DNA from: Vermamoeba vermiformis
Lineage: Eukaryota
Direction of reading: 5' to 3'
Assembly (NCBI GenBank): GCA_045837725.1
Contig: JBEWZL010000136.1
Coordinates: forward strand, 1-64,000
Length of the DNA stretch: 64,000 bases
Shown: positions 9,549 through 34,161 of the stretch, piece after piece
Numbering within the stretch: the stretch's first letter is position 1
Layout: the number at the start of each line of letters is the position of its first letter
Position numbers and translations under genes: made by a program
Notes under the pieces: generated by a model
The model's input: the letters and a program-made list of their open reading frames with translations, nothing else
What the model was told of the DNA's origin: nothing
Database searches by the model: none

Positions 9549-9664
9549 TGTAGCAGTGCGGGCTCAGGATAGCGAGTAGGCAGCGCTGAGCACGATTTAT
9601 GCTTGATTTATGCATGCCGGGCCTAATTTTTTGTTAGGCAGTGTCTCGATGTCGCACTATTTCA
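9549..9664 (+). repeat. Left terminal direct repeat (116 bp, TG...CA)
   Basis: Identical by eye to 34046-34161; ends are imperfect inverted repeats (TGTAGCAGTGCG vs TGAAATAGTGCG, 9/12). Confidence 0.97.
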
Positions 9665-9675
9665 TACGGGTCAAT

Positions 9676-9798
9676 GGGTCGGCCTCTCGACCCGGCAAGC
9701 CTAGGGTCTTCGGCCTCGCCTTGCCCCTCGTACTTTCTACGCCGTGTTGCTATTCCTTCGGAATGGTTCATACCCTTCGGGTATTCACCCCGCAACAC
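9676..9798. promoter_or_regulatory. Hairpin cluster just inside the left repeat (candidate ssDNA origin or structured RNA)
   Basis: Stems GGGTCG/CGACCC, GGCAAG/CTTGCC and GTGTTGC/GCAACAC, the last enclosing ATTCC-TTC-GGAAT and ATACCC-TTC-GGGTAT. Confidence 0.6.
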
Positions 9799-9833
9799 TA
9801 GCTCCGAAAGTCTGACAGGTACAGGTTGATTTA

Positions 9834-10451
9834 TTAAAGTGCTCCGACTTTACCCATCAGGTTCTCGCTCGCGCCCTTAGCGCCCAAATTGAGGTTCTTG
9901 CCGCGGTTTTTCTGGTAGCATATGAAAAGGTGAATTAAAAACCGGAGCCTGGGCTTGAGTTGCATATTAAGTTGTTGATTCTCCATCAACTCAAGTTCAA
10001 TCTCAGCCCAAGTATCTAGGATTTCCTCGTCATTAAGTGCGGCCAAGGCGAAATGATCAGATGCACCTGGTTTGTCCACTGCCTTGGCCCCAAATTCAAT
10101 CATATTTACAATTATACTGAGACCCATCGTAGACACTGGATTGCCCTTGATGGCCATTAAGGTAGTTTTGATCTCCTGCCAACGCGACTCGAGGTCTTCC
10201 TGGGATAGACCCGCGACATTACCATCCACGTTTGCTAAATATTTGTTCAATCGCCCTGTTTTGGCCTTTGTAATTAAGTTTTTAAGCAATGTCTTGCGCT
10301 TTTCGTCCTCAATTGGTTCCTCATAATATCCTGTGCCGGCATCATTAGGGGCAAATTCGTCTCCTTCATATTCGTCAGCAACATTATCATACGCGGGATC
10401 GTCGCCTAGGTCGACACCTGCCGTGTTCATCTCAATTATCTCTTCGGCCAT
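9834..10451 (-). CDS. Viral hypothetical protein, acidic N-terminus (205 aa)
   Basis: Intact ORF with upstream TAAAAATTTA...AATATA motif. Confidence 0.75.
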   Translation of the reverse strand: MAEEIIEMNTAGVDLGDDPAYDNVADEYEGDEFAPNDAGTGYYEEPIEDEKRKTLLKNLITKAKTGRLNKYLANVDGNVAGLSQEDLESRWQEIKTTLMAIKGNPVSTMGLSIIVNMIEFGAKAVDKPGASDHFALAALNDEEILDTWAEIELELMENQQLNMQLKPRLRFLIHLFICYQKNRGKNLNLGAKGASENLMGKVGAL

Positions 10452-10513
10452 GACTGTATTTCAACACAAGTATATTGGATAGTGCTAAATTTTTAAAATA
10501 TTGAAATTTATTA

Positions 10514-11623
10514 TTAAAGATCGACTGGCTTGAGCTTTTTGCGATAAACTGCAAGTTGATCTACAATATCATTAGTACCCTTGCGCGTGATGTAAAATAT
10601 AGGCACTTGACCTGTCTTGGCGGCTGACTTCAACTGCAAACGTATATTTTCAGCTGCGGCTTTGATTATATTGGACATAGTGCTTGTGCTACCTGAAGGT
10701 GTGAGATATTTGATCTCCTTGTCTTTTCCTGCCATCCTAACTAAAAATCTAGCGATATTTTTAACGCTAACATCCACCCAGTTGACAAACCTATTATTAG
10801 GGTCTGAGATGTTCTTAACAAAAATAGGGTAAATGTCCTTATTTTTGGAGTCTTCGTTGGTGAAAAGACCCGGGTAGGATCCTTCTAAGTAAATCTTAGC
10901 CTCCTCTTTCTCTTCGGTATCGGGGACTTCATTGCCCGGAATCAAACTGTCGCTGTTATTTTTGAATATGTCTTTAGGATTGTCAGCGCGAATTGTCTTG
11001 AGGTCTTCTGGGTTTGGCACCATTTTCGCTTTTTTACCGATATTTGTGGATTTTGGCAAGCCAGCGGCAATTTTAGGTTGTTGCGCCGCGATTGATTTAC
11101 TAATTGGCGACATTTTAGGAGGTGCTGCGGCGGGTCCTGGCAAAACAGGGACTGTTTGAGGTATGACTGGAAGGGGTTGTTGAGCAAGTGGTACTCCCCT
11201 ACGAATGCGTCTACGTTCAGTTTGCGCTGCTTTCTTTTCGGCCTTTTGTTCATCAGTAAGGGTTTTCTGTGTCTTCGCTTCGCCAAATAATTTTCTAGCG
11301 TCTCTACCAACAGGTTCGGATTCTGCCTTAATTTGCTTAAGGTGTCGTCTAGTTCTTCTTTGCATCGTGATAATCTCGGGCTGACGCTGTTGAATATCTT
11401 GAATTGCGGGCAACAGGTTGGCATTAAGTGGTTCGCCACTACCCTTAGCGGCTTTTCTAACTCCCTTAAAGAAACCGTAGTCTTCGAGTACTTCACCTAC
11501 GATTGTTGAAACATCAGTGTGGTACTTTTTTGAAATTCCCCAGTCGTCTTGCACAGTGTCAATCAGGCGACCTTGAGAATAAGGCCTGTGCTTCAGTGCG
11601 TTGTAAAAATCATTCATTTTCAC
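10514..11623 (-). CDS. Viral hypothetical Lys/Pro-rich protein (369 aa)
   Basis: Long intact ORF in a co-oriented gene block. Confidence 0.75.
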   Translation of the reverse strand: MKMNDFYNALKHRPYSQGRLIDTVQDDWGISKKYHTDVSTIVGEVLEDYGFFKGVRKAAKGSGEPLNANLLPAIQDIQQRQPEIITMQRRTRRHLKQIKAESEPVGRDARKLFGEAKTQKTLTDEQKAEKKAAQTERRRIRRGVPLAQQPLPVIPQTVPVLPGPAAAPPKMSPISKSIAAQQPKIAAGLPKSTNIGKKAKMVPNPEDLKTIRADNPKDIFKNNSDSLIPGNEVPDTEEKEEAKIYLEGSYPGLFTNEDSKNKDIYPIFVKNISDPNNRFVNWVDVSVKNIARFLVRMAGKDKEIKYLTPSGSTSTMSNIIKAAAENIRLQLKSAAKTGQVPIFYITRKGTNDIVDQLAVYRKKLKPVDL

Positions 11624-11685
11624 TTTGATAGTTGTATATTAAGTGATGCAAAAAAATTGTTTTTGAATTGATTTTACCGCACTGC

Positions 11686-12138
11686 TTAAGCGCGATTCTT
11701 ACCAATTGGCAAGCCTTCCTGTGCGTTATGCACTCGTCGAGATGCCAACTTAGCGAGGACATCATCGACACTGGGGAATGAGGCCTCCACGACACTCATT
11801 TGGAAATCGATATCTTGCGCCGCACGTGCTTTGGCGTACTTTTCGGCACTACCCAAATCTCCAGTGGCCTGTAAAAATGTCTCAAAGTTCTCCTTGTAGC
11901 TTTTTTCTATTGTGTCCTTGATACCAGCCAATGCGGCTCGTCTATTCTTCATATATGCATCTGGGTCGCTAATGGCCTGGTCATACTTATACATCTTGTT
12001 AAGTTGATCATAAAGGCCCAAATCAGACAAAACCAATTGTGCTCTGGATGTCTCTGCTTTACCTGCATCGCTAGCAACTAAACCTTCGAGGTTAAACTTG
12101 CCGTCGGCCTTCAGCCAGGGTGTAAATTTGTCAGCCAT
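11686..12138 (-). CDS. Viral hypothetical helical protein (150 aa)
   Basis: Intact ORF with AT-rich flanks. Confidence 0.7.
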   Translation of the reverse strand: MADKFTPWLKADGKFNLEGLVASDAGKAETSRAQLVLSDLGLYDQLNKMYKYDQAISDPDAYMKNRRAALAGIKDTIEKSYKENFETFLQATGDLGSAEKYAKARAAQDIDFQMSVVEASFPSVDDVLAKLASRRVHNAQEGLPIGKNRA

Positions 12139-12203
12139 CTTGATAGTTAATACTGATTGATGATCTATATTAACTACTGTGAAAAAAATAAAATATTATT
12201 AAA

Positions 12204-12395
12204 CTAATCATCACTGAAAAGTTTGTCCACTAACTTACCCAATACGATGTCAACATTTTCACGAGTCTTCAGGTCAACAGGGACGCCTATTTTATTGAGA
12301 TAACCTATCTGTAGGCTTGACAACGCGGCACAGAGCGCGTTTTTAATCATTTCATTGATATCGATATCATAATCAATCTCGTCCATTGAGGGCAA
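12204..12395 (-). CDS. Small viral hypothetical protein
   Basis: 63-aa ORF filling the gap between neighbours; start uncertain. Confidence 0.45.
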   Translation of the reverse strand: MPSMDEIDYDIDINEMIKNALCAALSSLQIGYLNKIGVPVDLKTRENVDIVLGKLVDKLFSDD

Positions 12396-12423
12396 TTATA
12401 AACACTAAATTTAACTTTTTAAC

Positions 12424-12783
12424 TTACATAAATAAGTCAGCGACGATGACACCCGCGGCGGTACCTAATGCGGTGTATGCGGGGGCTAAGTAGTTGTAAA
12501 TACCAGGGTGCATCGTGATAATCTGTCTAAATACCTCGCCGCCCAAGAGTATCTGCGTGCCAGCTGCAAAAACAGCGGCCGTAGTGGCCTTTGAAGCGCT
12601 TACAGACTCACCCATGAGCATTGACGACACAACGACTGCTGAGCCACCGAATAAAGCGGCATTAACGGCTGCGGGAGCACTCGTATGGTATTTCTGCACG
12701 ACCGGTTGCAACACTGGAAAGGTAATTTTGCCAATAGTGAGGTCTGCACCGAATGCAAGACCTGATGCTAGTATAATATCCAT
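12424..12783 (-). CDS. Viral multi-pass membrane protein, paralogue of 30728-31090
   Basis: Gly/Ala-rich hydrophobic helices; MDIILASG...TALGTAAGVIVADLFM matches MDLILMGG...TGAGTVLGVMLGDMLF. Confidence 0.75.
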   Translation of the reverse strand: MDIILASGLAFGADLTIGKITFPVLQPVVQKYHTSAPAAVNAALFGGSAVVVSSMLMGESVSASKATTAAVFAAGTQILLGGEVFRQIITMHPGIYNYLAPAYTALGTAAGVIVADLFM

Positions 12784-12848: not shown

Positions 12849-12939
12849 TGACTGATGTGGCGCGACGGCGATGTGGAAATTTTGATAGTTATAAGTATAG
12901 GATTTTTAACGTCGCCGTCGCGCCACCTGAGTTGGGCCT
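12849..12939 (+). repeat. Palindromic intergenic element, copy 1
   Basis: Perfect 15-bp inverted repeat GTGGCGCGACGGCGA (12857-12871) / TCGCCGTCGCGCCAC (12912-12926) around an AT-rich TTTTGATAGTTATA core, followed by CTGAGTTGGGCC. Confidence 0.92.
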
Positions 12940-12987
12940 TTAATTTTGTTTTTTTAAAAATTTAATCTGCTTAATATACCCCTAACA

Positions 12988-13524
12988 ATGGGCCGTGTGA
13001 AACCTAAAGTGGACCTTGGTAGCGGCACTATCGCCCCTACTGAGAAAAAAAGAAAATTACGTCAATCGATTTGGAAAATTACCATCAATACTCATTTATC
13101 GTTTCCTGACCTAATCCTACACGCCGACAATGAAGGTCCCGCTAATTTAGAAAATTATGCGCGCAATCACCGCGAGTTTGGTGCCGCCTACGTCGCATTC
13201 AAAGATATTTTAAATGACATATTTGGTGAAAACTTAGACCGGTACATTAATGTCAAAGAAGAGGGCATTGAGGCGCTTGATGACCGCTATTTTAATGCGC
13301 CTGACGCCAAGATCGTGTTAGAGGTGGGCCCACGCAACAAGCAATTGCACAGTCATATCTTTTTGAAAATACCGCATAGGACGAAAGTAAATTTAAAGTA
13401 TGACGAGATTAAGGCGGCCGTCCAGTCAGCATTAGGACTCGCTGAGCCCCCGGCATTCTCCGCTAAATGGATCAGTCCAGGTGAGGCTGAGATGGCCGAG
13501 TTGTATGTTTTAAAAACACAATAA
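12988..13524 (+). CDS. HUH-superfamily endonuclease (rolling-circle Rep-like), no fused helicase
   Basis: Motif I WKITIN, motif II EVGPRNKQLHSHIFL (H-S-H), motif III YVLK (YxxK), in canonical order. Confidence 0.75.
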   Translation: MGRVKPKVDLGSGTIAPTEKKRKLRQSIWKITINTHLSFPDLILHADNEGPANLENYARNHREFGAAYVAFKDILNDIFGENLDRYINVKEEGIEALDDRYFNAPDAKIVLEVGPRNKQLHSHIFLKIPHRTKVNLKYDEIKAAVQSALGLAEPPAFSAKWISPGEAEMAELYVLKTQ

Positions 13525-13641: not shown

Positions 13642-14184
13642 ATGTTAAATCCCTATAACGCAAAAAATACTGTAGCCTTCTACGGCGAATATTCGCGCAT
13701 TGTCATTATGATTGCGAGCAACGATAACACCCTTTTCACCATTGACTTTGAGGACTTTGAGAGGATCAAGACACACCGATGGTCAACCAACGGGGCCGGA
13801 TACCTTCAAACTTGCATTAATAAAAAATCTGTTTTCTTGCACAGATTCCTACTCGACGCCCAACCCGGCATCATTGTGGACCACAAAGACGGCAACTATA
13901 CAAACAACCGAAAGGCCAATTTGAGATTCGCTAACAAGGCCCAAAATAACCAAAATAGGGGCATTTCAAGGGCCAATAAAACGGGCTTCAAGGGCGTCCA
14001 ACGCATCGGTAATAAGTACTTATGCACGCTTAAATATACTGAAAACGGCATACAGCATATGGTCTGTGCGACCTTCGATGACCCTGTTAGTGCCGCGATT
14101 CAGTACAATGAGTTTGCAAGACAGTACCACGGGGAATTTGCAAGGCCCAATGTAATTCCACCAATGGACCCTGTTGCCGAGTAA
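13642..14184 (+). CDS. HNH endonuclease with C-terminal AP2-like DNA-binding domain (homing-endonuclease type)
   Basis: LHRFLL...VDHKDGNYTNNRKANLR...NNQN; TGFKGVQR...AAIQYNEFARQYHGEFARPN. Confidence 0.88.
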   Translation: MLNPYNAKNTVAFYGEYSRIVIMIASNDNTLFTIDFEDFERIKTHRWSTNGAGYLQTCINKKSVFLHRFLLDAQPGIIVDHKDGNYTNNRKANLRFANKAQNNQNRGISRANKTGFKGVQRIGNKYLCTLKYTENGIQHMVCATFDDPVSAAIQYNEFARQYHGEFARPNVIPPMDPVAE

Positions 14185-14215: not shown

Positions 14216-14776
14216 CTATTCAACCATTGTATCGAAAAACTCCTCAGGATTATGCAATTCCGACTTAATGGTTTCATATGTTAGATAAAGGACGGCTTTT
14301 TTCACCTCATCCTTAGACTTATTCGTTTCATTCAAGTACTCGAAGTCATCCCAGATACGAAACCAAATTTTGTCTTTGAAGACTCGCGAAAGGTTTTTCA
14401 CTAAAATATCTTTTACAAAGGCATATCTATCGATCCTATTTTGTGGATAAGCTATATGATTTTCGAAAAAGGCCTCCTTGAATATCATTACTGGGAATGT
14501 GTATCTGACTTGTCGCCGGTCCCAGGCGGAGGCATTCCAGCCTAATACATAATTTCCTGTCGGATGCCGCACCGGCTTATCCTTGCATATCGGGTCGTTG
14601 TCGTACTGATCGCAGTAAGCATCGATCCAATAGATGGGATAGCAGGCTTTGCAGACGTATATTGATCCAACTTTTTTAATCGTAGTAATATTTTTGCAGT
14701 GATCGCAGGTGAAATAATATGCGATATGCCATTTGCAATCGTCATTTAAATCCAATTTAGACAATATTATTTCCAT
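14216..14776 (-). CDS. Viral protein with F-box-like N-terminus and CxxC...CxxC finger (paralogue family)
   Basis: MEIILSKLDLNDDCKWHIAYYFTCDHC...CKAC; N-terminus shared with 22176-22781 and 23287-23802. Confidence 0.7.
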   Translation of the reverse strand: MEIILSKLDLNDDCKWHIAYYFTCDHCKNITTIKKVGSIYVCKACYPIYWIDAYCDQYDNDPICKDKPVRHPTGNYVLGWNASAWDRRQVRYTFPVMIFKEAFFENHIAYPQNRIDRYAFVKDILVKNLSRVFKDKIWFRIWDDFEYLNETNKSKDEVKKAVLYLTYETIKSELHNPEEFFDTMVE

Positions 14777-14852: not shown

Positions 14853-17800
14853 TTATAATTTTACCTTGTATTGGCCATTGCGTAGTTCAATATCACTGAG
14901 GGCGACACGGTAATTCAAACGTCTGTTGTTCTCGGCCTCGAATTTGATACCAAAGTTAGCCATGAATTCGTTAACAGCCCGCATTTGAGCCGCGAAATTG
15001 GCATCTTTGAGGCCCTTGAGTTGCTCCGTGTGCGAATGACCAAAGACCTTAGCAAATAAGTCAACTGCGCTGTATTCACCTTGGAATAAGTCTGCGTACC
15101 ACTTACATGCGGTCTCAACCTGGGCCCTAGTGATGCGTGCATTGGTGTTGATCCTGCTATCTACAATGACAGCGGGATTGGCCGATTTGATAATGTTAAT
15201 GATAAACCATAGGCGCCATTTATTCTGCGTGTAGGTATTGTCATAGGCCTCCAGGGGAATGAATCGCAATTTAGGGTCGTTGCTGGCCTTGATTTGAGAC
15301 ATTAATAAGTCTTCGATGGCGACCTCGGCTGGCTTATTTTGCATCGCCGCATTATACTCACCACATACATACGTGGCATTACGCAATTGCCTATCAGCCA
15401 TCCTTTTCGCGACTGCTGGTGTAATCTCACCATGGTAATCAAAGGCCTTTTTGAGATACCATCGCGCCAATGACAGCAACTCTTCGGGGGTCTTAGTGTC
15501 CTTGGATTCCATCGCCTCGAGATCTTCAGGGTCCAAATCACGCGCGGCTGCGAGTTCTTCTGCTTTGATGGTCTGAAGCATTCGCTTAACCTCAGCCGTG
15601 GACTTTTTGATGACCAATGCGGCCTGACCATCGGGATCTTTGGCATCCATCGCGACTTCGTGCCCATTGTTAATCAAGTATTTGATCATCCAAAACAAGT
15701 ACTTACCCCTGTAATCTATAGTTTGCATTAATTCGGCCAATTTCCAGTCGTACAGGTAGTTCTTGGTGATATAAGTGTTGGTAGGGATGACGAGATTGTA
15801 CTTTTGTAGCATTTTAGGTTCTGCGTATATGATGCGTTCAGCTTGATCGCGAGTGGGCGCAAGGTCGCACACACGGTCCTTAATGTAAGCATGAATGACG
15901 CCCATGCCGACATTACGCACCCTTCCAAGCATCTGAATTGCGCAATTAGGGTCGCACAACTCACTTGTAAAGTAGGCGAATCCACGCGCGAAGTGTATGC
16001 GCTCGAATGAATTACCAGCCGAGATTGTGGGCGTGTAAACGACGACGTCCAGCTTGCTCCACTCTTCATTAATGCGACTAAGTTGCTCCTTGATGTCCTC
16101 GCTGGACTCACCAGTGTAAAGACCAATGTTGAGGCCCAAGTCGAGCTTTTTGAGTTGCTCAACGACCTCTTTGGCAAATGACTTAACACCACTTGCAATG
16201 AAGAAAGGGGCCGTCTTAGCTGTCTTCGCCGCCTCCATGATCTCGCCCCTAAGTGTCGATTCATCACACACGAAGTTGACCTTCGGTTTCGGGATTTGTG
16301 CCGTATTGTTGATAATCAAGGGGCGCTCTTGGGGCCTGATAGACATTATAAAGTCAACATCCGCACGTGTTAAATTCGCATCAATGCATATTACGACCTT
16401 GGCGTTAGACACCAACCATCTGAATTTCTCGGCATTGTCCTTGAGATTTGTTTTATTGGTGTCTACTGAATGAATCTGAGATATAATTGACTTTACCTCG
16501 TCCATCACAAGCACATCGGGAGCTACCATCTTGGGGCACAATCGGCGCAATGACTCGTACTGAATGATGAGCTTAGGGTCGCTTATAACGGCCTTAGTCG
16601 CGTTTTTATAGACCACGTAGTCTTGCAATGTTCGCTGGCGTTCAATCGCGAGTGAGACCCTGTGCGTGATGAATAGCACGTTGTTGTAATTATTCTGACG
16701 GAGCCATTGCACGAGCCATTTGGACTTACCAGTTCCCATTGGGGACTTAATAAAGGTCAATGTCGCCACTTCAGGCGCGACAAACTCGGGCAATGCGATA
16801 TCGACAATGCGGCACGACTCAGGCATCACGTCGACGGCTTGCATGGCATCGGCATGGGCCTTCTGGAATTTAGCTGCAAAGGCCGCACGGGGACTAAGTT
16901 TAGGTGCCTTAGGCTCGGGCTTTTCAACATTAATCTTGCCGACTAATTCGTACTTACCAGGGGACTTGAAGCACCTGACATAGACCCTACCGCATTTTTT
17001 GATGGTCGCGTACAATGAGTCGTAATTGTCGTGGGTACGGGCACAGAAGGTGCAATAACTGGACCCGATGCGCTGGAAATAAAGGGCGCTTCCATTAAAC
17101 TTGGTAAATCTGAAATTATGTGCGTGATGGGTTGCTAATACCATGTCCTTCGCGATGTCAATTTGTTCATTCGCGCATTTAACCATATCTAGCTTAGGTG
17201 CGGGCACGTCCTTGTATTCGAAGTAATCCGGGTAGTGGCCTGCAACGTGTACGAAAAGGTCCTTGGTATTGACCTGCATGTCGACGGCATCTGATGAATT
17301 GGGATCTATACGCATCCATCTATCAGTAAGGATCTTGACACTGTTGATCGTGCGCAACATACCTTTCTTGTAGACGTCGCGGTCAATACAGTTGATCACC
17401 AAGTCGTGGTTCTTAATTACACCTACTGATGACTTACGGTAAAATGCGATAAAGTCGTTGATAAGGAGCTTTACCTCGGCGACATGTTCGAATACGCGCG
17501 ATGACGCAATGATAATGTGATAGCTGAGCTTAACGCCCGGGTCGTGGGCACTCATTACCGTCCAAGGCGCGTACAAAAACTCAAGTAGGGTAGGGTATGG
17601 ATCCAATAGGGACGTGATGAATAAGTAGAAATTGCGTTTGAGGTCAGGGATGATGTTGTCGATCAATACTTGGAAAGTGTCGTGGTCTATTTCGCCGTAA
17701 TCAGTGCTGACGCGCGTGATTTCAAGGTCCAAGAAAACGCGAATAGGGCCGTAAAGGACCTCATGGACTGTTCTAATATCCTGAGGTAAGCTATTAATTA

Positions 17801-18242: not shown

Positions 18243-18288
18243 ATGGAAAATTAAAAATTAAAATATCAATTTTTTAAGGGTCTCAATA

Positions 18289-18373
18289 ATGTGGCGCGAC
18301 GGCGACGTGGAATTTTGATAGTTATATAAAATAGTTAAAAGTTATGTCGCCGTCCCGCCACCTGAGTTGGGCC
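18289..18373 (+). repeat. Palindromic intergenic element, copy 2
   Basis: GTGGCGCGACGGCGAC...TTTTGATAGTTATA...GTCGCCGTCCCGCCAC-CTGAGTTGGGCC between divergent genes. Confidence 0.9.
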
Positions 18374-18422
18374 TATTAATTAATTTGTATAATTTAAAAA
18401 TTTAATAGTCGTAATTATAGAC

Positions 18423-19088: not shown

Positions 19089-19132
19089 CACGCCCATCGC
19101 TTTAAGCTTTTTTTATTTTTTTGGTTTTTTAA

Positions 19133-20194: not shown

Positions 20195-20252
20195 AATTAC
20201 AATTTAAAATCTCCCAAGTGCTCGCAAGTTCGGAAAAGTGAGCGAAAAGATA

Positions 20253-22132: not shown

Positions 22133-22175
22133 ATTGATTTATAATATTAAAAAATAAATTTTTAATTCGACAAAA

Positions 22176-24938: not shown

Positions 24939-27511
24939 TTTCTAGTCTTTCAATACGCTGGATTAAATCATTCACTATATTTTCAAGTGCCATATTTTTG
25001 TCTTGTAATTGTTTAATCAACTGCTTTTGGTGCTTTATTATTCCGAAGCTGATAAATGCAATTTCGTCGCCTGATACGGTCTGTATCGGGTCATCGGGAT
25101 TTTCAATAGTCTTCGGGTGAGTAGGTGAGGTGCGTATATTACCCAATTGGTGCTTCGTGTATAATGCATTCACCTCCTGTGCAATCATACCAAGCTTGAT
25201 ATCACTGGCATCTTCGTCGTCTTTGTAGTTGAAGTTAACCACCTGTACGGTGTCTATGTCGTCGTAAATATCGGCGATTGGGAGCTGTCTACGAATATTC
25301 TTGAGCCTAATATCAGAAATCGTATTCCAGGTCGTTGTAGTTAATTGAAGGCCTTGACTACCGGCTGCATTGGTTGAAAGATAATATCCCCCGGACATAC
25401 GCCCATAAAATGTCTTCTTTTGATTCGAAATTCAATTTGGGATTGAATTACCGTGTTTGCTAACACGCCCATCTTTCGCATGGGGATTGGACTATATCTT
25501 AAGCAATATCTACCATTTCAATAGATATCACCAACATCCATTTAGTCTCTGGACGCGATTACGTATAGTTAACGTAATATTCGCTGCGGATTGCCCATTT
25601 GACGCCTAATAGCAATCTATCGTATAACTTTTTACAATAGTCCAAATCATGAATTTGAAATGTTTTACCTGTAATTAACAGGGACTGTGTATTATACGCT
25701 TTAGGGGTTTCCCGCAATTTGAATGTTTCGCGAATAAAAGTATTTATTCACTATCGGCTACTTTTATAGCCGATTTAACGAGCAAGACATAATTTACTCG
25801 TTCCGCACGACACTGCTGTGGCGCTACTATCGCTGACACAGAAGCAATTGGAAAATGATGTCGAGCAATATGATCCAAAGATAAGAGTGCCGCCCGTATT
25901 GCCTGAAATGGTCGTATTTCCATTGCCGCTGCATAAAATCATGTTGGCCCCTGCGGTGGCCGTAATGCTGCCTCCGTTAGACGATATAATCGTAGAATTA
26001 TTGCCTCCTGAGATGCTTGCTGGGGTATTCGATGAAATAATGGAATTGGTGCCACCAGTGGACGTTATAGACCCCGAAGTTGACGCTATAATGGCCGAAT
26101 TGTCCGCACCAGACCCTAATGTGTTGCCACTGCCAACTACAATGGCGCGATCGACAGTTGAATTGATCGTGTTAGGTGTCGTGCCGCATACATCAATGCA
26201 CCTCATTTCACCTAGTCTATTGTTGTTGCACAGGATAAACTTAAAGTCAGAATCCAAGTTCAAGCTACCACCACCTTCACCATAGCAAGTGCCGACGTTG
26301 ATTTGACCACTCGATGCCGTATTGGATGAGTTCCTGACCTGTAAAACACCTGTAAGGGCCGATTTAAGTTGCGTTTGACCTAGCGTATTAATGGTCAATG
26401 TGCCCGTATTGATGGTGCCATCAGTACCCCCTACAGTGGTGCCTGAATTGATTGTACCGGCCATATTGATGACGGCCGAAGCCGGATTGATGTTAATATT
26501 ACCGGCGCTGGTAAGGTAATTGTTTGAGTAGACCGTCCCGGCCTGTACAGTACCGTCATTACCCCCGGCGGTAGATCCTACTTTGAATATACTACCTGTA
26601 GCGCCTGTAAGGTATGTGTTCGCGGCATTAACACCATCTCCAAGGACCAATGCGTCTGTATTACAGCTAAATCTTGGGTTATTATCACCAGATACTCTCA
26701 CGCTGAATTTAGTAAACCCTGCTACTGAATTAGGGAAAGTAATGGAATTCACTATTAGGTTAGCTGTATTACCACTCAGATCCTGAATTACAAGATATCC
26801 TGCACTTCCATTGACTAATTGTACGCCACCGGCCGCCGTAAGTTGCACATAGCCGACGTTCGTAAGACCTTTGTTGTTAAAAACGACATTGTTGCCGACT
26901 GGATTGATGTTTAAGTCGGCGCTATTGGTCGAAATAGTGTCGGTATAGGTCGTACCTAAGCGTAATGTTCCATTGGCCGATCCTAGTGCGGTGGTGGATA
27001 ATGTAAGATTACCTGCACCGGACCTGTACGCGAATGTATCTGCAACGTTATTGCCTGCTGACCATTGCATTGATCCGTCAGTTTTAATGGCCAATTTAGG
27101 GTTCACACCGGTAGTTGGATTGGTCGCGGTCAGGATACTAGTGGTGTTGCTACTGGACGACGTATTTATCGTTTTAAGGTCCAATGTGCCGCCCGTGATT
27201 GCCAATTCATTGGCCCCAACGCGTTGCAATCTGGTGTCCAATGCGTTAGTACCATCGCCAAAGTCAATGAATCCATCATACAACAGACTTAACCTATCGT
27301 TGGCGTCTCCAGTTATTTTAACACAGAATGCATCGGACCCACTAGACCCCACAAGAGGGCACAGTGAAGTTCCACTAGGGGGCTGTACAACTACATTGAT
27401 AGTGTTGTTGTTCGTTATACTACCCCCGCTAGGGTCAGTGTTGTCTATCCTTTTGTTGATATTTACAAAATCCATGAATTTATTATCAAGTATATTATAT
27501 TGCACAAACAA
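24889..27511 (-). CDS. Virion fibre/spike protein with C-terminal intramolecular chaperone (peptidase S74/ICA) domain; two exons (27511-25796 and 25416-24889), 747 aa after splicing
   Basis: G/N/T/S-rich beta repeats; SDIRLKNI...NFNYK...GMIAQEV plus coiled coil; junction ACG AGT|AAG ACA TTT TAT is in frame. Confidence 0.85.
25417..25795 (-). ncRNA. Group I self-splicing intron (379 nt, no internal ORF)
   Basis: P AAUUGCGGGAA (about 25709-25719), Q AAUCCGCAGC (25583-25592), R CAGAGACUAAA (25541-25551), S AAGAUAUAGUCC (25489-25500); P1 AACGAGU/GCUCGUU with U.G at the 5' splice site; P10 AUGUCUU/AAGACAU; terminal omega-G at 25417. Confidence 0.93.
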
Positions 27512-27636: not shown

Positions 27637-27720
27637 GGCCCAACTCAGGTGGCGGCACGGCGACGTAAGATTTACTATTTATATAACTATCAAAATATTC
27701 ATGTCGCCGTCCCACCACAT
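27637..27720 (-). repeat. Palindromic intergenic element, copy 4 (inverted)
   Basis: GGCCCAACTCAG-GTGGCGGCACGGCGAC...TATAACTATCAAAA...GTCGCCGTCCCACCAC between divergent fibre and capsid blocks. Confidence 0.88.
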
Positions 27721-27790
27721 TACTAGGGTAATTAATTTCGTTAATTTAAAAATTTAATACTACTTAATATAGTTCCTATTAAGCATACTA

Positions 27791-28210: not shown

Positions 28211-29458
28211 ATGTCAACCACTAATTTTCTTACCCGTTTAGGTGATCGCCCGTCTTCATCTTTGAAGCTCATTAACGCAAACAATCCCGCGTACGAGACG
28301 ATCACTGTGAGGGACGCTGCTGGTCAAAATCAAGTCCTCCAAGCCGACCAAGCACGCTCTCATGTCTGCAATCAATACGACGTTGTGATCCCCGCGTTGA
28401 CCGTGCCTGCAGGCGTTCTTAACTCTGGCCGTGTTGATTTCCGTGTCCCCACCAACAATCTTAACTTCATCACCTCTGTGTCGCTCCAAATGACCATCTC
28501 CGAGACTGGAGGCGTGAATCCTATTACATTGTTGCCGGCACCCTTAATCATCGACTATATCCAGATCTACGCTGGAAACGGCCAGACCTTGATTGAGCAA
28601 CGCTATGGTGATGAATTGTGGCTCGATAACGCCTGGAGGACGTCTGAGCAAATGACATTGTTGGCCAACGCTGAAAACACCACAGCGACTTACGGTGCCG
28701 GTACTGCGATCAGTGCAAGCGGTTCTGCAACCTACTACGTCCCTATTGAGTGCCATTTGTCCCGATTGGAGTTGTTTGCCCCTGCTATTTCGTCTGACTA
28801 CTTATTCCGTGTTAACTTCCGATCCATCACCGCAATGACTGAGTCAGGTACTGGTACTCCCTCATTGGCGTCTGCTAACTTGATCTTCAAGTGCACTGAC
28901 TTGTCGCCTGCTGAGTGCAACAGATTGATGAATGAGTATCGTAGCTACAGACACACCTTCAGATATATTCAACCGGTCCGTCAGACCTACACCCAGGCCT
29001 TGGCCGCTTCGTCTGCTTATACCTTGCAACTCAACGGTGTCAACGGTATTGCTGCTTACTTCCAGGGTCTCGTCAGATCATCTAATACTGGTGCTGCTCT
29101 GCGCCAATCTGATCCTAACATATCTACACTCGATCTTCGCAACAACGCCGGTCAATCAATGATTGGAGGTCAGCCGTTGCCTTTCAACTACCTGCGATAT
29201 GTTAAGTCTGCCGAGTACTTCCCTAGTAGCATGTTGGTCAATATTCCTTTCCTTTGGTATTCGCACTCTGAAGACCCCAAGAAGGTCTGGGATATCAACG
29301 TTGTCGATGGCTTCAACGTGTACACCGGTCTTGAGCAATTATACATCACTACTGGCTCTGGCATCACTCCTGGTACGTTCTACATCGACTTGTACTTCAT
29401 GATGTACGGAATCATCGAGGTTAACACCGACGGTAGCGTATTCCAATACTCTTCTTAA
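28211..29458 (+). CDS. Major capsid protein (double jelly-roll)
   Basis: 415 aa, beta-rich; LIIDYIQIYAGNGQTLIEQRYGDELW and YYVPI resemble DJR MCP N-terminal motifs; next to the penton gene, with the ATPase gene nearby. Confidence 0.82.
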   Translation: MSTTNFLTRLGDRPSSSLKLINANNPAYETITVRDAAGQNQVLQADQARSHVCNQYDVVIPALTVPAGVLNSGRVDFRVPTNNLNFITSVSLQMTISETGGVNPITLLPAPLIIDYIQIYAGNGQTLIEQRYGDELWLDNAWRTSEQMTLLANAENTTATYGAGTAISASGSATYYVPIECHLSRLELFAPAISSDYLFRVNFRSITAMTESGTGTPSLASANLIFKCTDLSPAECNRLMNEYRSYRHTFRYIQPVRQTYTQALAASSAYTLQLNGVNGIAAYFQGLVRSSNTGAALRQSDPNISTLDLRNNAGQSMIGGQPLPFNYLRYVKSAEYFPSSMLVNIPFLWYSHSEDPKKVWDINVVDGFNVYTGLEQLYITTGSGITPGTFYIDLYFMMYGIIEVNTDGSVFQYSS

Positions 29459-29518: not shown

Positions 29519-30265
29519 TTAATTAGGGCGCTCCTGCGTGATCTCGAGGGTCATCGTCCAGTTGGCGCCATTGAGGTCTACATCAGCATAGGTGCGCGAC
29601 TTGAGCATTACCGTGAAGGTCTTGAGATACACCCTGTTTGACAACTGAAGCTGTTGGAATTGCGTATTAATATTGAAATTTACATAATTAATGCTGTTTT
29701 GATCCATTGGTATTTCGAAAGTATAGCTAAGTCCATCAGTAGTCGCTAGGGGCGCTCCGAGCTCCTTTATAATAACATAAATGGGCGTAGGAATGCCTAA
29801 ATTGAATACATTGGTGCCTGTTTGGGATGTAGCGCTGCCTGTATCGGTCGTGCCGAATCCTAGCACTGCATTCATCGTGGACTGCGATAAATTAAGTACA
29901 AACGGATTAGTCCCTGCAATGGTCGTCTTGAGTGTTGTTGAGTCGAAAGTAATGGTAAATGCATTGGCGTACACCGCATTCATCGCCGCGGCCAGAGCTG
30001 CACTCAGTGTGGATGTTGTATAGGCCCCAGCGGCCAACGTTATTGTGTAAGTATTGCCCGCTGCTGTGAATACTAAAACATTGTTTGATGAGGTGATATT
30101 ATAAATGGTATTTGGGACCTGAGCATTCAATAGTCGCACACTAATAACACCGTCAAGGGCGTCTTGAATCGTGCATATAAAGTTGCTACTCGTGCCGCTG
30201 CTACGGTCGGCTGAGTTAATGACAACAGGTTTAATTTGCAATTGCTTTTTATCACTGCAACACAT
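29519..30265 (-). CDS. Minor capsid (penton-like single jelly-roll) protein
   Basis: INSADR...SSNF...VISVRLLNAQVPNTIYNI...DLNGANWTMTLEI, typical of PLV/NCLDV minor capsid proteins. Confidence 0.8.
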   Translation of the reverse strand: MCCSDKKQLQIKPVVINSADRSSGTSSNFICTIQDALDGVISVRLLNAQVPNTIYNITSSNNVLVFTAAGNTYTITLAAGAYTTSTLSAALAAAMNAVYANAFTITFDSTTLKTTIAGTNPFVLNLSQSTMNAVLGFGTTDTGSATSQTGTNVFNLGIPTPIYVIIKELGAPLATTDGLSYTFEIPMDQNSINYVNFNINTQFQQLQLSNRVYLKTFTVMLKSRTYADVDLNGANWTMTLEITQERPN

Positions 30266-30377: not shown

Positions 30378-30677
30378 TTAGATACTCCTTAGATCTCTTA
30401 TCAATGTGGACAGCACGATAGCACCGCCGATAATAAGGCCACCATATATGATCCAGTCGATATGCTCCGCAATTCCAATTACGTTTTGGCCAACACTGAC
30501 TGTCCTATCCGCTATAGTAGTGAGTGGGTCGTCGCCTAAAATCTCACCTTGTCGTTTGCAATAAACCCTTCCTGCGACTCCGAGCCACCTACAGGCCGCC
30601 GACACATCATAATTATAGCATTCGGGGATAAGATAACTCAATGGTCCAGTCGAGCAATAAATTGGTAAATCTGCCAT
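30378..30677 (-). CDS. Small Cys-containing viral membrane protein
   Basis: C-terminal TM WIIYGGLIIGGAIVLSTLI. Confidence 0.65.
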   Translation of the reverse strand: MADLPIYCSTGPLSYLIPECYNYDVSAACRWLGVAGRVYCKRQGEILGDDPLTTIADRTVSVGQNVIGIAEHIDWIIYGGLIIGGAIVLSTLIRDLRSI

Positions 30678-30727
30678 TCTTGAAAAACTAAATTAATCTA
30701 TATTATTAATGTTAATTTTTTGTACGA

Positions 30728-31090
30728 TTAAAACAGCATATCTCCGAGCATTACACCTAGTACTGTGCCTGCACCAGTGATGCCATTGAAGACGTAGCTA
30801 GTCGCTGTTTGGCCGATTGAGTTGGCGATTGGCCAATATATGGTCCTACCAAGGCCAATTTGAAGTGCATTGACGGTCGCTACAATGCCCAACATTTCGG
30901 CACTGCTCAATTGATCGCCGTTTGATGTCTTAACTAAAACATATGATGCCAAACCCATGATGCTACCGTTAACGCCCGCTGGAAGGGACTGATTGATTCC
31001 ACTGAGTGATTGGTACAATGGCGGATATGTGAGCGGCGAAACAAACTTGTCAGCCGCTGCTGCGATACCTCCCATCAAAATTAAATCCAT
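30728..31090 (-). CDS. Viral multi-pass membrane protein (paralogue of 12424-12783)
   Basis: Hydrophobic 120-aa ORF with similar N- and C-termini. Confidence 0.75.
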   Translation of the reverse strand: MDLILMGGIAAAADKFVSPLTYPPLYQSLSGINQSLPAGVNGSIMGLASYVLVKTSNGDQLSSAEMLGIVATVNALQIGLGRTIYWPIANSIGQTATSYVFNGITGAGTVLGVMLGDMLF

Positions 31091-31145
31091 GTTTTCTGGT
31101 TGTATATAATATTGTATCCAAACTATTTGATAAAATAATTATTTG

Positions 31146-31616
31146 TTAATTTACCCAGTTGTACAACCAGTTTCGGTACGCGTAATCAGCACCTACTTCA
31201 GATAACATCGCGACACCCACTATATTAATCAATGCTGATGTATTGAATATCTGGCCGTCGCCAATGTAGAGAAGGGCTACGGTACCGAGTGCATTAATGG
31301 CTGGATTCGCTAAGGACTTTTCAAAGTCGCTAAGGGCACGATAGTCATTTACTTGCTCAATGACTGTCTCGCTGAATGCATTGGCAATTAAATTACCACC
31401 TGCGACTGCCATACCAAGGGCCATTGGAATACTCATATCATAACCGAAAAATGGTATTCGGCCCTGTCCTTGGCCCATGAAACTAGACACGGCGTATGCT
31501 ACAGCGCCCGCCGCCAGGGGCTTGGCCGCCACTTTTGAAATGCGTTGAAGCGTACTCTCACGCTCACCACTGGCCATGGCCGATCCCATCGGCATATATT
31601 GTGAATACTTGTTCAT
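31146..31616 (-). CDS. Viral multi-pass membrane protein (156 aa)
   Basis: About four Gly/Ala-rich hydrophobic helices. Confidence 0.75.
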   Translation of the reverse strand: MNKYSQYMPMGSAMASGERESTLQRISKVAAKPLAAGAVAYAVSSFMGQGQGRIPFFGYDMSIPMALGMAVAGGNLIANAFSETVIEQVNDYRALSDFEKSLANPAINALGTVALLYIGDGQIFNTSALINIVGVAMLSEVGADYAYRNWLYNWVN

Positions 31617-31665
31617 TGTTCGACTTCAAAAAAACTATATTATTGTTGTAATTTTTTCAAATAAT

Positions 31666-31803
31666 TTAAATGGTTCCCTTGCGGTACTGGGCCGAAGCCT
31701 TTTTGACTGCTGCTTTCCAGCTGCCGCCCCTCTTATGGATTTTCTTGGCCTTTGCAACAATCTTTTTGAGTGCTGTTTGGCCCTTCTTCGCTCCTCTCTT
31801 CAT
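31666..31803 (-). CDS. Very basic 45-aa protein (candidate DNA-condensing core protein), absent from the ORF track
   Basis: Manual translation: MKRGAKKGQTALKKIVAKAKKIHKRGGSWKAAVKKASAQYRKGTI*. Confidence 0.65.
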   Translation of the reverse strand: MKRGAKKGQTALKKIVAKAKKIHKRGGSWKAAVKKASAQYRKGTI

Positions 31804-31849
31804 CGTTCGACTGTGATTAATAACTTAAACTATATTTTAAGGTACAAAC

Positions 31850-33025
31850 TTAATTTTTAATTAATTGTATTTGGTTTCGCACGGTCGTTATTGTCCCGCC
31901 ATCAGGGGCCTCAACAGTGTACTTGCCGCCATATACCTTGCTAACTGTGTAAATCTGCTTAGACCATTGAGGTATATAACCCTTTACGAAGTTGTGCCTT
32001 CTGTCAGATTGCAACCTAGGGTCTAATGCATAAATGGACACACGCACTTGATTTCCAACAGATACCTTCGGGAATTCCCTTGTGGTTTGTTTAATAGACT
32101 TATCCGCGGCCTGTTTGATACGTTTAGCTGCGGCTTTGGCCGTAGGATCACGCCTGTTCTTATCATGAAGGGAGAAAGGGCGGCACTTGGTAGTCGCATG
32201 TAGGGATTCGTTGTACATCAAAACGCACCAGTCAACAACGCGTCTATCTACCTTAAGGCGCGGTCCTGAGTTGTTAAGCATGTACTTTTGAATAATCCCC
32301 TTGATAGTCTTATTAAATCTCTCCACGATTCCCTGAGACTCCTTCACGTACACACCGGACCTAATATGCTTTGGATGGCCACCATTTGCCCTTGCAAATT
32401 CGTCAATGAAGGCCCTGAAGCTCGCTTCGAATTCCACTCCATTGTCCGATTTGATCACTTTTGGATGGTTCTGGGGCGTCATAATCTCACGCATGAAGTT
32501 CGCGGTATCAGTGGACGTCGGAGTCTTACCGTTGCGCTTAAGTAATGTCTTTACCCATGCGAATTTCGAAAAACAGTCTATGACACAGAATAGCCACACA
32601 TCTTCGTTATCGCCTGACTTGTAAAGGGTGCAATCGCATTGCCACACAGCATTAGGTTCCCGCACAATCGTTGGTCTTGTAATAGGATTGTTGCGTGCGA
32701 CATATCGTGTCCTTTGTTGCGTTTCATTTTTATTCAACCATTCATTTATGAATCTGAATGATATATTTGCGTATTCACGCTTGAGGTCATCGAAAAGTTT
32801 ATCACGGCCCAATCCGGTCTCTTTGTAGCGTGCTGATACAATCTCCTCGGCCTCCTGGGGTCTCACTACACGTCTATTGGTGCCAGAGGCGAAAAGTACT
32901 CCATTGCGCAATTCAAATTGGCTCGCAACGGCCTTAAAACGGTATATCCCGGACCTAGCAAGCGGCGGCAAGGCCCCTTCTGAGTGATACGCGATGATCC
33001 TGTTAATGTCCTCGTCAGTTAACAT
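31850..33025 (-). CDS. Retroviral-like (rve) DDE integrase, Polinton/PLV type
   Basis: WQCD, VIDCFSKFAW, IKSDNGVEF, SQGIVERFNKTIK, YNESLH, C-terminal VGNQVRV...FVKGYIPQWSKQIYTV. Confidence 0.95.
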   Translation of the reverse strand: MLTDEDINRIIAYHSEGALPPLARSGIYRFKAVASQFELRNGVLFASGTNRRVVRPQEAEEIVSARYKETGLGRDKLFDDLKREYANISFRFINEWLNKNETQQRTRYVARNNPITRPTIVREPNAVWQCDCTLYKSGDNEDVWLFCVIDCFSKFAWVKTLLKRNGKTPTSTDTANFMREIMTPQNHPKVIKSDNGVEFEASFRAFIDEFARANGGHPKHIRSGVYVKESQGIVERFNKTIKGIIQKYMLNNSGPRLKVDRRVVDWCVLMYNESLHATTKCRPFSLHDKNRRDPTAKAAAKRIKQAADKSIKQTTREFPKVSVGNQVRVSIYALDPRLQSDRRHNFVKGYIPQWSKQIYTVSKVYGGKYTVEAPDGGTITTVRNQIQLIKN

Positions 33026-33073
33026 TTTGTAAAAATAATTTTTTATTTTACTATATTATAGCAGGAAAAGATA

Positions 33074-33853
33074 ATGAATGCAATTAAGACCCCTTCATCC
33101 ATTTTAATGTGCGCGGCCCCGATGGCTGGCAAATCATACATGATATCCTATTTACTGTACTGTTTGTGCAAAATGAAGCGATTTAACCATGTTCTCGTGT
33201 TTTCACCAACGGCCCACGACGATTACAAGTTTGTGCCTGAAAATTGGCGTTATGACGAGTGGAAGCCTGATGTCGTGCAACATCATATGGCCCAACAGAA
33301 ACGACTGATGGGCGAAGGTAAAAACATTCAAATGGCAGTTGTTTTCGACGACATCATAGGTACTTTTAATATGAAAGACAAGCTCATTGAAAAACTAATG
33401 ACAACATTTAGGCATTATAATATGACTATATTTGTCGCGACTCAGTGGGTTTATGCATGCCCACCGTCGATTCGTAATTCGGCTTCGTATGTATTTATAT
33501 TTCAACAGTCAATGGCCAGGGCATTTGACGCATTGTACGAGTCATTTGGCCAATTGTTCGAGACCAAGGAGCAATTCAAGCGCGTGATAAATTCCTGTAC
33601 GCATGACTATAATGTACTTATGTACGATCGAATGGCCCCAAATGATATCCGTAAGAAATACAAAGTAGTCAAAGCAGGTGTTGTACCGTCCAATTTTAAA
33701 TTAGTTGATGCCGCGAAACAAAAAAATTCTCAAACTAAAAATTTAAGTTATGATAATTATAATACAAATTACAACGAAGATGACGACACCGAATACCGTG
33801 GACAAATCGTTCCTCGCTCAATGCATAATTATGGCCGCGGAGGAATTTATTAA
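33074..33853 (+). CDS. A32-like genome packaging ATPase (FtsK-HerA superfamily)
   Basis: Walker A AAPMAGKS, Walker B VVFDD, RHYNMTIFVATQ, PPSIRN. Confidence 0.92.
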   Translation: MNAIKTPSSILMCAAPMAGKSYMISYLLYCLCKMKRFNHVLVFSPTAHDDYKFVPENWRYDEWKPDVVQHHMAQQKRLMGEGKNIQMAVVFDDIIGTFNMKDKLIEKLMTTFRHYNMTIFVATQWVYACPPSIRNSASYVFIFQQSMARAFDALYESFGQLFETKEQFKRVINSCTHDYNVLMYDRMAPNDIRKKYKVVKAGVVPSNFKLVDAAKQKNSQTKNLSYDNYNTNYNEDDDTEYRGQIVPRSMHNYGRGGIY

Positions 33854-34076
33854 AATCGAGGACAACAGCAGGGCCGCTTTACTTACTTATAATAATGACA
33901 ATCTGTTGGAAATCAAGTTGCTTCAATCAGGTGGTTTCATTGCAGCTGAAGCGGCCAAGATGTACATAGCCGCGCGTGGTGGGGCAGCTACACAGGCGGC
34001 ACTTAAGGCCGAGATGGAGCGTGCTATGAGGGCTGAAACGGACCCTGTAGCAGTGCGGGCTCAGGATAGCGAGTAG
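33750..34076 (+). CDS. Viral hypothetical protein whose 3' end lies inside the right terminal repeat (likely start about 33780)
   Basis: Frame reads ...ETDPVAVRAQDSE* with stop at 34074-34076, inside 34046-34161. Confidence 0.55.
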   Translation: MIIIIQITTKMTTPNTVDKSFLAQCIIMAAEEFIKIEDNSRAALLTYNNDNLLEIKLLQSGGFIAAEAAKMYIAARGGAATQAALKAEMERAMRAETDPVAVRAQDSE

Positions 34077-34161
34077 GCAGCGCTGAGCACGATTTATGCT
34101 TGATTTATGCATGCCGGGCCTAATTTTTTGTTAGGCAGTGTCTCGATGTCGCACTATTTCA
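34046..34161 (+). repeat. Right terminal direct repeat (116 bp, TG...CA)
   Basis: Identical to 9549-9664; followed by TSD CCAAG. Confidence 0.97.

What the first reader, a model, noticed from the sequence alone, without database searches (positions are those of the whole stretch)
9549..34161. Polymerase-less integrating DJR-capsid virus combining LTR-like ends, an rve integrase and a rolling-circle HUH Rep
Seen: complete 24.6-kb element with MCP, penton, A32 ATPase, rve integrase, AEP primase-SF2 helicase and HUH endonuclease, direct terminal repeats and a 5-bp TSD; no pPolB, RT or protease recognised. Known: Polintons and many PLVs/virophages with rve integrases have terminal inverted repeats; Mriyaviruses (Yaravirus relatives) encode HUH Reps; TG...CA direct repeats belong to retroelements. 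Inference: a distinct lineage that integrates like a retrovirus but replicates and leaves the chromosome as DNA, for example by Rep nicking in one repeat and terminating in the other to release a one-repeat circle. I do not know this combination from described groups, but cannot check the literature.
Basis: partly seen in the sequence, partly recalled or inferred. Interest (0 to 1): 0.96.

Follow-up and report, generated by a model that had tools for sequence, protein, structure and literature searches.

The report
Integrated virus with retrovirus-like ends
An intact 24.6-kb DNA virus related to the small cousins of giant viruses has inserted into a gene of a single-celled eukaryote and carries retrovirus-style repeated ends without any reverse transcriptase, which hints at an undescribed way for DNA viruses to integrate.

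Summary
Confirmed. Positions 9549-34161 hold an intact provirus with identical 116-bp TG…CA direct repeats and a 5-bp target duplication, inserted five codons into a host gene. It encodes a double jelly-roll capsid closest to giant-virus capsids (Z 32 vs 17 for virophages), a penton-like protein, A32 ATPase, rve integrase, AEP primase–UL9-like helicase, a probable HUH nuclease and a DUF5767-like protein. No polymerase or reverse transcriptase was found. The gene set is not new: a June 2026 preprint describes 20-30-kb Mriyavirus-related Polinton-like viruses (Zora/VC102, VC218) in which RVE and HUH both occur. I found no report of a host-flanked copy with LTR-like direct repeats plus target duplication. 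Favoured but untested mechanism: a circle with one repeat is nicked at both repeat edges by the integrase and inserted as a Mu/IS26-like cointegrate, which duplicates the repeat. A terminally redundant linear genome is the close rival. Circles, expression and clade membership were not shown.

The parts
9544..9548 (+). Left copy of 5-bp target-site duplication (CCAAG)
9549..9664 (+). Left 116-bp direct repeat, TG…CA, with short imperfect inverted ends (att-like)
9834..10451 (-). DUF5767-like helical protein of giant-virus type; candidate Mriya48 orthologue (equivalence inferred, not shown)
   Evidence: 0.93, 215 of 256 features shared, PF19071 in 20% of cluster members
10514..12783 (-). Four orphan ORFs, including a basic K/P/R-rich 367-aa protein and a 119-aa hydrophobic protein paralogous to 30728-31090
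   Evidence: the 60-aa ORF was not scanned
12849..12939 (.). Palindrome P1: GC-rich inverted arms around a conserved AT-rich core, 48 bp before the HUH start
   Evidence: (z -7.5)
12988..13524 (+). Probable HUH endonuclease (motif I at residue 29, HxH at 121, YxxK at 173)
   Evidence: fold inconclusive in 41, 52
13642..14184 (+). Free-standing HNH endonuclease
   Evidence: HNH_3 E 1.9e-7
14216..14776 (-). Cys-rich protein; paralogous to 22176-22781 and 23287-23802
14853..18242 (-). AEP primase fused to UL9-like SF2 helicase; AEP motif-like segments at 170, 240, 285 and helicase motifs intact (motif assignment from recalled consensus)
18282..18380 (.). Palindrome P2, between divergent genes
   Evidence: (z -4.0)
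18423..23045 (.). Block of orphan ORFs on both strands
23163..23253 (.). Palindrome P3, 98% inverted copy of P1
   Evidence: z -4.3
24889..27475 (-). Fibre-like gene with C-terminal S74 chaperone domain, split by a group I intron (about 740 aa once spliced)
25402..25783 (-). Group I intron; Rfam core 25467-25778, exact splice sites ambiguous among several in-frame pairs
   Evidence: (100.7 bits, E 2.5e-25)
27637..27738 (.). Palindrome P4, between divergent fibre and capsid-block genes
   Evidence: (z -5.6)
28211..29458 (+). Double jelly-roll major capsid protein, NCLDV-like
29519..30265 (-). Presumed minor capsid (penton) protein; link of DUF5901 to pentons is recalled, not folded here
   Evidence: DUF5901 E 1.5e-8
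30378..31803 (-). Four small hydrophobic or basic ORFs, presumed virion proteins
31850..33025 (-). rve (DDE) integrase with intact D-D-E segments
33074..33853 (+). A32-like packaging ATPase
33780..34076 (+). 98-aa ORF whose last codons and stop lie inside the right repeat
34046..34161 (+). Right 116-bp direct repeat
34162..34166 (+). Right copy of target-site duplication
34162..34177 (-). First five codons of the interrupted host gene, which continues left of 9548

Best explanation
A recently integrated, intact provirus of a small NCLDV-like double jelly-roll virus (Zora/VC218-type Polinton-like virus) of a microbial eukaryote. SHOWN: end structure, target duplication, host-gene disruption, capsid fold, gene set, about one copy per host flank. 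INFERRED: with no polymerase it replicates with host DNA polymerase plus its own primase–UL9-like helicase, the four palindromes acting as helicase-loading origins or enhancers and the HUH protein driving rolling-circle copying of a 24,497-bp circle that carries ONE 116-bp repeat. Integration: the rve integrase nicks 3' of the CA at each edge of that single repeat and joins both ends to host DNA with a 5-bp stagger. Fill-in of 116+5 nt then duplicates the repeat, giving repeat–virus–repeat, as in Mu/IS26 cointegrate formation. Exit: recombination between the repeats (or HUH release) regenerates the circle and can leave a solo repeat. The provirus identity is about 90% likely; the confidence given is for the circle/cointegrate route.
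For: Identical repeats, 5-bp duplication and restored host frame. Each repeat has inverted att-like ends, 9 of the first 12 bases matching. Intact integrase segments. HUH implies a circular template, and Mriyavirus and Zora genomes are described as circular or terminally redundant. The closest HUH and ATPase homologues lie on metagenomic contigs of 24,827 and 24,170 bp, near unit length. In run X1 a contig carries a foreign flank exactly after the repeat's CA, absent from the window, and both flanking contigs stop one base short of the two-copy expectation while the P3 control is exact. So other repeat junctions exist although interior depth is 0.95 of the host flank, as expected for solo repeats or subclonal insertions. 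Mu/IS26 cointegrate chemistry and UL9-origin layout are recalled established knowledge.
Against: No circle was observed; 31-mer contigs cannot span a 116-bp repeat. A linear genome with terminal redundancy gives the identical provirus. Retroviral and Polinton integrases act on linear ends (recalled), and synapsing two sites 116 bp apart needs a tight loop. The depth of the extra junction was not shown, so it could be a chimera. Ends of the two relatives' contigs could not be fetched. The HUH fold is not confirmed. No relative's locus was available to show that direct repeats or palindromes are conserved.
Confidence: 0.42

Rival explanations
1. Same virus, but the integrating form is a linear, terminally redundant genome (repeat–unique–repeat) cut from rolling-circle concatemers, perhaps by staggered HUH nicks at the repeat edges, and inserted by ordinary retrovirus/Polinton-type end joining.
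For: Matches known rve chemistry (recalled). TG…CA ends and a 5-bp duplication. A32 ATPases package linear genomes in many relatives (recalled).
Against: Needs an extra step to duplicate 116 bp at each round. No relative was shown to have host-free two-repeat ends.
Confidence: 0.36
2. The 116-bp repeat is the LTR of a host non-autonomous retroelement. A viral circle that had captured it recombined into a resident solo LTR, so repeats and target duplication come from the retroelement, not from the viral integrase.
For: Further repeat junctions exist in the sample while the viral interior is single-copy. TG…CA with a 5-bp duplication is the LTR signature (recalled).
Against: A viral ORF ends inside the repeat. 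The virus has its own intact integrase and no other terminal repeats. The two repeats are identical.
Confidence: 0.12
3. One reading: the HUH protein nicks in one repeat and terminates in the other, releasing a circle by replication while the provirus stays. This is compatible with either integration route.
For: The repeat is the only site present once per circle. Four internal palindromes are unlikely nick sites, since nick-to-nick copying would give subgenomic circles (inference).
Against: The repeat folds no better than shuffles (z -0.38). No amplification over host depth in X1.
Confidence: 0.3
4. Assembly artefact: a circular viral contig was spliced into a host contig.
For: Run X1 may be the source of the assembly, so its junction support is not independent.
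Against: Exact 5-bp duplication and a host frame restored only with one copy of it. Both junctions present in short-read contigs, depth equal to host, no break for an empty allele at the right junction.
Confidence: 0.02

Closest known systems
Zoravirus (VC102), VC218 and VC134 NCLDV-like Polinton-like viruses (Bellas and Sommaruga, bioRxiv 10.64898/2026.06.19.733378; parts 1-4 of 5 of the text read, figures and supplements not seen)
   Same: 20-30 kb; MCP, mCP and A32 ATPase of NCLDV-like type; HUH and RVE both common in the group; Mriya48; complete genomes with direct or inverted repeats
   Different: The text read describes no host-flanked copy, no target duplication and no LTR-like ends (0 hits for 'target site' and 'LTR'). 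Cluster assignment of this element was not testable.
Mriyaviricetes, Yaraviridae subset with SF2_hel (Yutin et al., PMC11253617; passages and two thirds of the phylogenomics section read)
   Same: No DNA polymerase; AEP fused to UL9-like SF2 helicase; HUH endonuclease; NCLDV-like MCP and ATPase
   Different: 35-45 kb against 24.6 kb. No integrase in Mriyaviruses. No VLTF2, VLTF3, RuvC or PDDEXK hit here by Pfam.
Maverick/Polintons, mavirus EMALEs and rve-encoding PLVs (PMC12220804, PMC8547959; passages read)
   Same: rve integrase, roughly 5-6-bp target duplication, DJR capsid, S74 fibre chaperone, group I introns in some PLVs
   Different: These end in long terminal inverted repeats, and Polintons carry pPolB and protease. 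This element has direct repeats, HUH and an NCLDV-like capsid.
LTR retrotransposons and retroviruses (recalled)
   Same: Identical TG…CA direct repeats with short inverted edges, 5-bp duplication, rve integrase
   Different: No RT, RNase H or Gag. A DJR capsid and DNA replication module instead, so the repeat duplication must arise without reverse transcription.
Mu and IS26/IS6 cointegrates or pseudo-compound transposons (recalled)
   Same: DDE nicking at both ends of one element on a circle yields a donor flanked by two direct copies with an outer target duplication
   Different: Bacterial; the duplicated unit encodes its transposase and is far longer. The analogy is mechanistic and untested.
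Replitrons (PMC10288648; passages read)
   Same: Eukaryotic element with a Y1 HUH Rep and direct terminal repeats
   Different: Repeats of a few bp, no capsid, no rve, usually no target duplication

Membership tests
Zora/VC102-VC218 NCLDV-like PLVs | Genome 20-30 kb with terminal repeats | tested here: met
   24,613 bp with 116-bp direct repeats
Zora/VC102-VC218 NCLDV-like PLVs | NCLDV-like DJR MCP, mCP and A32 ATPase | tested here: met
   MCP Z 32.1 (rmsd 2.5, 335 aligned) to PBCV-1 vs 17.2 Sputnik, 17.0 mavirus, 10.0 adenovirus; A32 and DUF5901 hits
Zora/VC102-VC218 NCLDV-like PLVs | Best hit to the group's MCP profile and place in its ATPase tree | not testable with these tools
   Profiles are in closed supplements; the MCP tree (45 of 92 aligned rows) has no named references
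Zora/VC102-VC218 NCLDV-like PLVs | Mriya48 gene | tested here: inconclusive
   9834-10451 resembles DUF5767/Pox_A11 clusters; that DUF5767 equals Mriya48 is my inference, and no listed paper held both terms
Zora/VC102-VC218 NCLDV-like PLVs | RVE integrase and HUH endonuclease | tested here: met
   rve; HUH probable
Mriyaviricetes | HUH endonuclease, helicase, no DNA polymerase | tested here: met
Mriyaviricetes | 35-45 kb genome without integrase | tested here: not met
   24.6 kb with rve
Mriyaviricetes | VLTF2, VLTF3, RuvC, PDDEXK core genes | tested here: inconclusive
   No Pfam hit in 30 ORFs scanned; no profile-profile search of the orphans
Maverick/Polinton (Polintoviricetes) | Terminal inverted repeats | tested here: not met
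   Only direct repeats at the ends
Maverick/Polinton (Polintoviricetes) | pPolB and cysteine protease | tested here: not met
   No hit and no room for pPolB; a tiny divergent protease is not excluded
Virophages (Virophaviricetes) | Virophage-type MCP | tested here: not met
   Z 17 to Sputnik/mavirus MCPs against 24-32 to NCLDV MCPs
LTR retroelements | TG…CA direct repeats, 4-6-bp duplication, rve | tested here: met
LTR retroelements | Reverse transcriptase, RNase H and Gag | tested here: not met
   No hit in 30 ORFs; no unannotated gap over 315 bp
HUH endonuclease superfamily | Motifs I, HUH and YxxK | tested here: met
   the middle residue of HxH is Ser rather than hydrophobic
HUH endonuclease superfamily | Rep fold | tested here: inconclusive
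   pLDDT 38; best Z 4.1, IS608 transposase at rank 31 with Z 3.2

The most novel reading that the evidence does not exclude
A lineage of small giant-virus relatives with circular rolling-circle genomes integrates by replicative cointegrate formation: its retroviral-type integrase uses a single 116-bp att element, which is duplicated on insertion. This would build true LTR-like proviruses and solo 'LTRs' with no reverse transcription, an integration mode I could not find described for eukaryotic DNA viruses. Such proviruses would be missed by inverted-repeat screens and miscalled as retroelements.
Probability: 0.35. Interest if true: 0.88.

Novelty: new variant of a known kind. Interest (0 to 1): 0.64.

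Why it matters
The Zora/VC218-type viruses are proposed links between Polinton-like viruses and giant viruses, and the text I read describes them from metagenomes. This is an intact host-flanked copy of that type in a sequenced eukaryote. It shows their rve can integrate and defines the end structure. It also turns the question of how a circular HUH-replicated genome uses a linear-end integrase into direct tests. Screens that call PLVs complete only by inverted repeats (PMC12220804; PMC10120064) would miss this class.

Tried and rejected
No host genome is held, so sister copies and solo repeats could not be counted. All 9 of 9 related-locus scans were empty: viral; metagenome. The palindrome pattern gave 9 viral hits; 5 of the 9 were searched with the MCP profile, 0 of 5 matched, and L009, with a tempting 24,602-bp contig, is a coding match in an unrelated phage-like gene. 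HUH: no Pfam, PDB-sequence or phage match of use; fold search inconclusive. MCP family: 1 of 92 members had any Pfam hit, an irrelevant one. No RNA holder was listed. RNA runs X4 and X6 come from a diverged strain (host reads mostly 90-95% alike); their pile-up at 19108-19141 is poly-T artefact, so they say nothing on expression. X7 laid 0 records. Only 16600-36500 could be laid, so the HUH gene and left end were not covered. No tRNA. Literature searches: searches returned 0 papers; searches returned no description of an integrated DJR virus with LTR-like direct repeats; passages of PMC10120064, PMC10675990, 10.1101/2025.04.19.649669 and PMC13768754 had 0 hits for 'direct repeat'. The library lacks most subscription papers, and Fig. 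4 and supplements of the Zora preprint may show such ends. Group I introns and S74 fibres in PLVs are already reported, so they were rejected as novelty.
Full report
OBSERVATION. The element runs from 9549 to 34161 (24,613 bp; 24,497 bp as a one-repeat circle). It is bounded by two identical 116-bp direct repeats that begin TG and end CA. Each repeat has short imperfect inverted ends, 9 of 12 bases matching. CCAAG lies outside both repeats; among lengths 3-11 only 5 gives a match. Joining the flanks with one copy of the duplication restores a host frame from an ATG at 34177 on the minus strand, stop-free over the 53 codons tested and beginning like a signal peptide; two copies or none give stops. 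The virus therefore landed five codons into a host gene. GC is 43.7% inside against 43.2% and 42.3% outside, and coding density is 86%. The host is a gene-dense eukaryote with 51-96-nt GT-AG introns and ordinary housekeeping genes. I infer a protist or similar microbe; it was not identified.

GENES. Pfam gives rve (31850-33025, E 3.7e-11), Pox_A32 (33074-33853, 6e-6), Herpes_ori_bp (14853-18242, 4e-32), HNH_3 (13642-14184), Peptidase_S74 (24889-25398) and DUF5901 (29519-30265). The 415-aa protein at 28211-29458 has 563 relatives at E up to 0.001 among 1.84 billion representatives, the best at 54% identity. Folded with 91 of the 150 listed hits, it reaches pLDDT 95. It matches PBCV-1, faustovirus, EhV, melbournevirus, ASFV, orf virus and iridovirus capsids at Z 24-32, and Sputnik and mavirus at Z 17 (Foldseek agrees). 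It is an NCLDV-like double jelly-roll capsid. The helicase has AEP-like segments at 170, 240 and 285 and intact SF2 motifs; the integrase has D-D-E segments at 128, 193 and 235 (motif consensus recalled). The 178-aa protein at 12988 shows the three HUH motifs, all kept in its single homologue at 72% identity. Language-model features link it at 0.95 to clusters with PF23343 in 11-14% of members and at 0.94 to a cluster with Nucleocytoviricota members. Its model is poor and its fold search inconclusive, so I call it probable (about 85%). The 205-aa protein at 9834 resembles DUF5767/Pox_A11 clusters of giant viruses and is my candidate for Mriya48, by inference. No pPolB, RT or protease appeared in 30 ORFs scanned, and no unannotated gap exceeds 315 bp.

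(1) Four palindromes at about 12849, 18282, 23163 and 27637: GC-rich inverted arms round a 42-54-nt AT-rich core with an invariant segment, plus a shared flanking motif. They fold at z -4.0 to -7.5, with 0 of 200 shuffles as stable, whereas the terminal repeat does not (z -0.38). They sit in four of the six largest intergenic gaps, three between divergent genes, and P1 and P3 are 98% inverted copies. Two inverted boxes round an AT-rich core between divergent genes is the layout of UL9-bound herpes origins (recalled), and the virus encodes a UL9-like helicase, so I read them as origins or enhancers. Four copies argue against HUH nick sites. (2) A group I intron (100.7 bits) splits the fibre gene; several splice-site pairs fuse it in frame to the S74 chaperone, giving about 740 aa. 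(3) A 98-aa ORF ends inside the right repeat, suggesting the repeat belongs to the virus.

READS. I laid 4 of 7 listed runs on 16600-36500. Run X1 may be the source of the assembly. Its long contigs match with no differences; five interior contigs average depth 460 against 484 for the adjoining host contig (ratio 0.95; the tool warns this is no true copy number). The host left flank appears directly before the repeat, and the right junction contig is unbroken, so no empty allele is evident. One contig carries a foreign flank exactly after the terminal CA, not found in the window. The contigs on both sides of the repeat end one base short of the two-copy expectation, while the P3 control is exact. 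Other repeat junctions therefore exist: solo repeats, subclonal insertions or chimeras; their depth was not shown. Circles cannot be seen in 31-mer contigs. The RNA runs are from a diverged strain and are uninformative.

RELATIVES. The closest HUH (72%) and ATPase (60%) homologues lie on metagenomic contigs of 24,827 and 24,170 bp, close to unit length. MCP relatives lie on contigs up to 37 kb. None could be fetched (9 of 9 scans empty). A tree of 45 of the 92 aligned MCPs puts the query in a supported five-member group but has no named references.

MECHANISM. Shown: integration with a 5-bp stagger at TG…CA ends, an intact integrase, and no polymerase. Inferred: host polymerase plus viral primase-helicase and HUH copy a circular genome. 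The puzzle is how a DNA virus gets two identical terminal repeats without reverse transcription. My preferred answer is cointegrate formation: nicks 3' of CA at both edges of the single repeat on a circle, strand transfer, then fill-in that duplicates the repeat and the 5-bp target, as Mu and IS26 do (recalled). This needs no linear intermediate and predicts solo repeats. The close rival is a terminally redundant linear genome integrated like a retrovirus or Polinton; the provirus alone cannot separate the two (0.42 vs 0.36). Recombination into a host solo LTR is less likely (0.12). Exit by recombination between repeats or by HUH release is open.

COMPARISON. Bellas and Sommaruga (bioRxiv 10.64898/2026.06.19.733378; text parts 1-4 of 5) define Zora/VC102, VC218 and VC134: 20-30 kb, NCLDV-like capsid module, Mriya48, HUH in about half of Zora and 28% of VC218, RVE in 57% and 62%, direct or inverted repeats. 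Yutin et al. (PMC11253617) describe AEP-SF2 helicase with HUH and no polymerase in some Yaraviridae, without integrase. The gene set is thus known, and the element works like a Zora-type virus; formal membership could not be tested. It fails the Polinton (inverted repeats, pPolB), virophage (capsid type), Mriyaviricetes (size, integrase) and retroelement (RT) tests. Endogenous rve-type PLVs and EMALEs are described with inverted repeats. My ten searches found no host-flanked DJR virus with LTR-like direct repeats and a target duplication; figures, supplements and subscription papers were not visible.

VERDICT. Real, intact and recent. A new variant of a known kind: the gene combination is in a 2026 preprint, while the proviral LTR-like ends, and the integration route they imply, appear undescribed and are directly testable.

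Noticed in passing
window 9549-34161, 60 bp upstream of ORFs: The hexamer AATATA lies upstream of 15 of 33 ORFs (shuffle mean 5.2, 0 of 2000 reached 15), mainly structural genes, rve and HUH, and not the 12849-23253 helicase block apart from HUH. The motif was chosen after viewing the data. Possible late promoter, host- or helper-virus-read.
   Followed up: partly
window 12849-23253: A 10.4-kb block holding the replication genes is bounded by the 98%-identical inverted palindromes P1 and P3, so it could invert or be exchanged as a module.
   Followed up: no
window 34161 (run X1): A contig joins the repeat's terminal CA to a flank not in the window: a possible solo repeat or second insertion.
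   Followed up: partly
window 6322-9548 (minus strand): The interrupted host gene appears to continue as intron-split exons of a secreted glycoside-hydrolase-like protein (resemblance recalled; Pfam gave no hit on 3 exons).
   Followed up: partly
window 2932-3319: Tandem array of 7.8 copies of a 50-bp unit, each with an internal palindrome.
   Followed up: no
window 3786-4578: A 29-bp-arm hairpin, a 66-bp tandem array and a 98-bp direct repeat 500 bp apart; may be a small host transposon or MITE.
   Followed up: no
window 14216-14776, 22176-22781, 23287-23802: Three paralogous viral proteins share an N-terminal helical segment followed by CxxC…CxxC; function unknown.
   Followed up: no
window 13642-14184: A free-standing HNH nuclease lies 11 kb from the ORF-less group I intron; it could be the intron's homing partner.
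   Followed up: no
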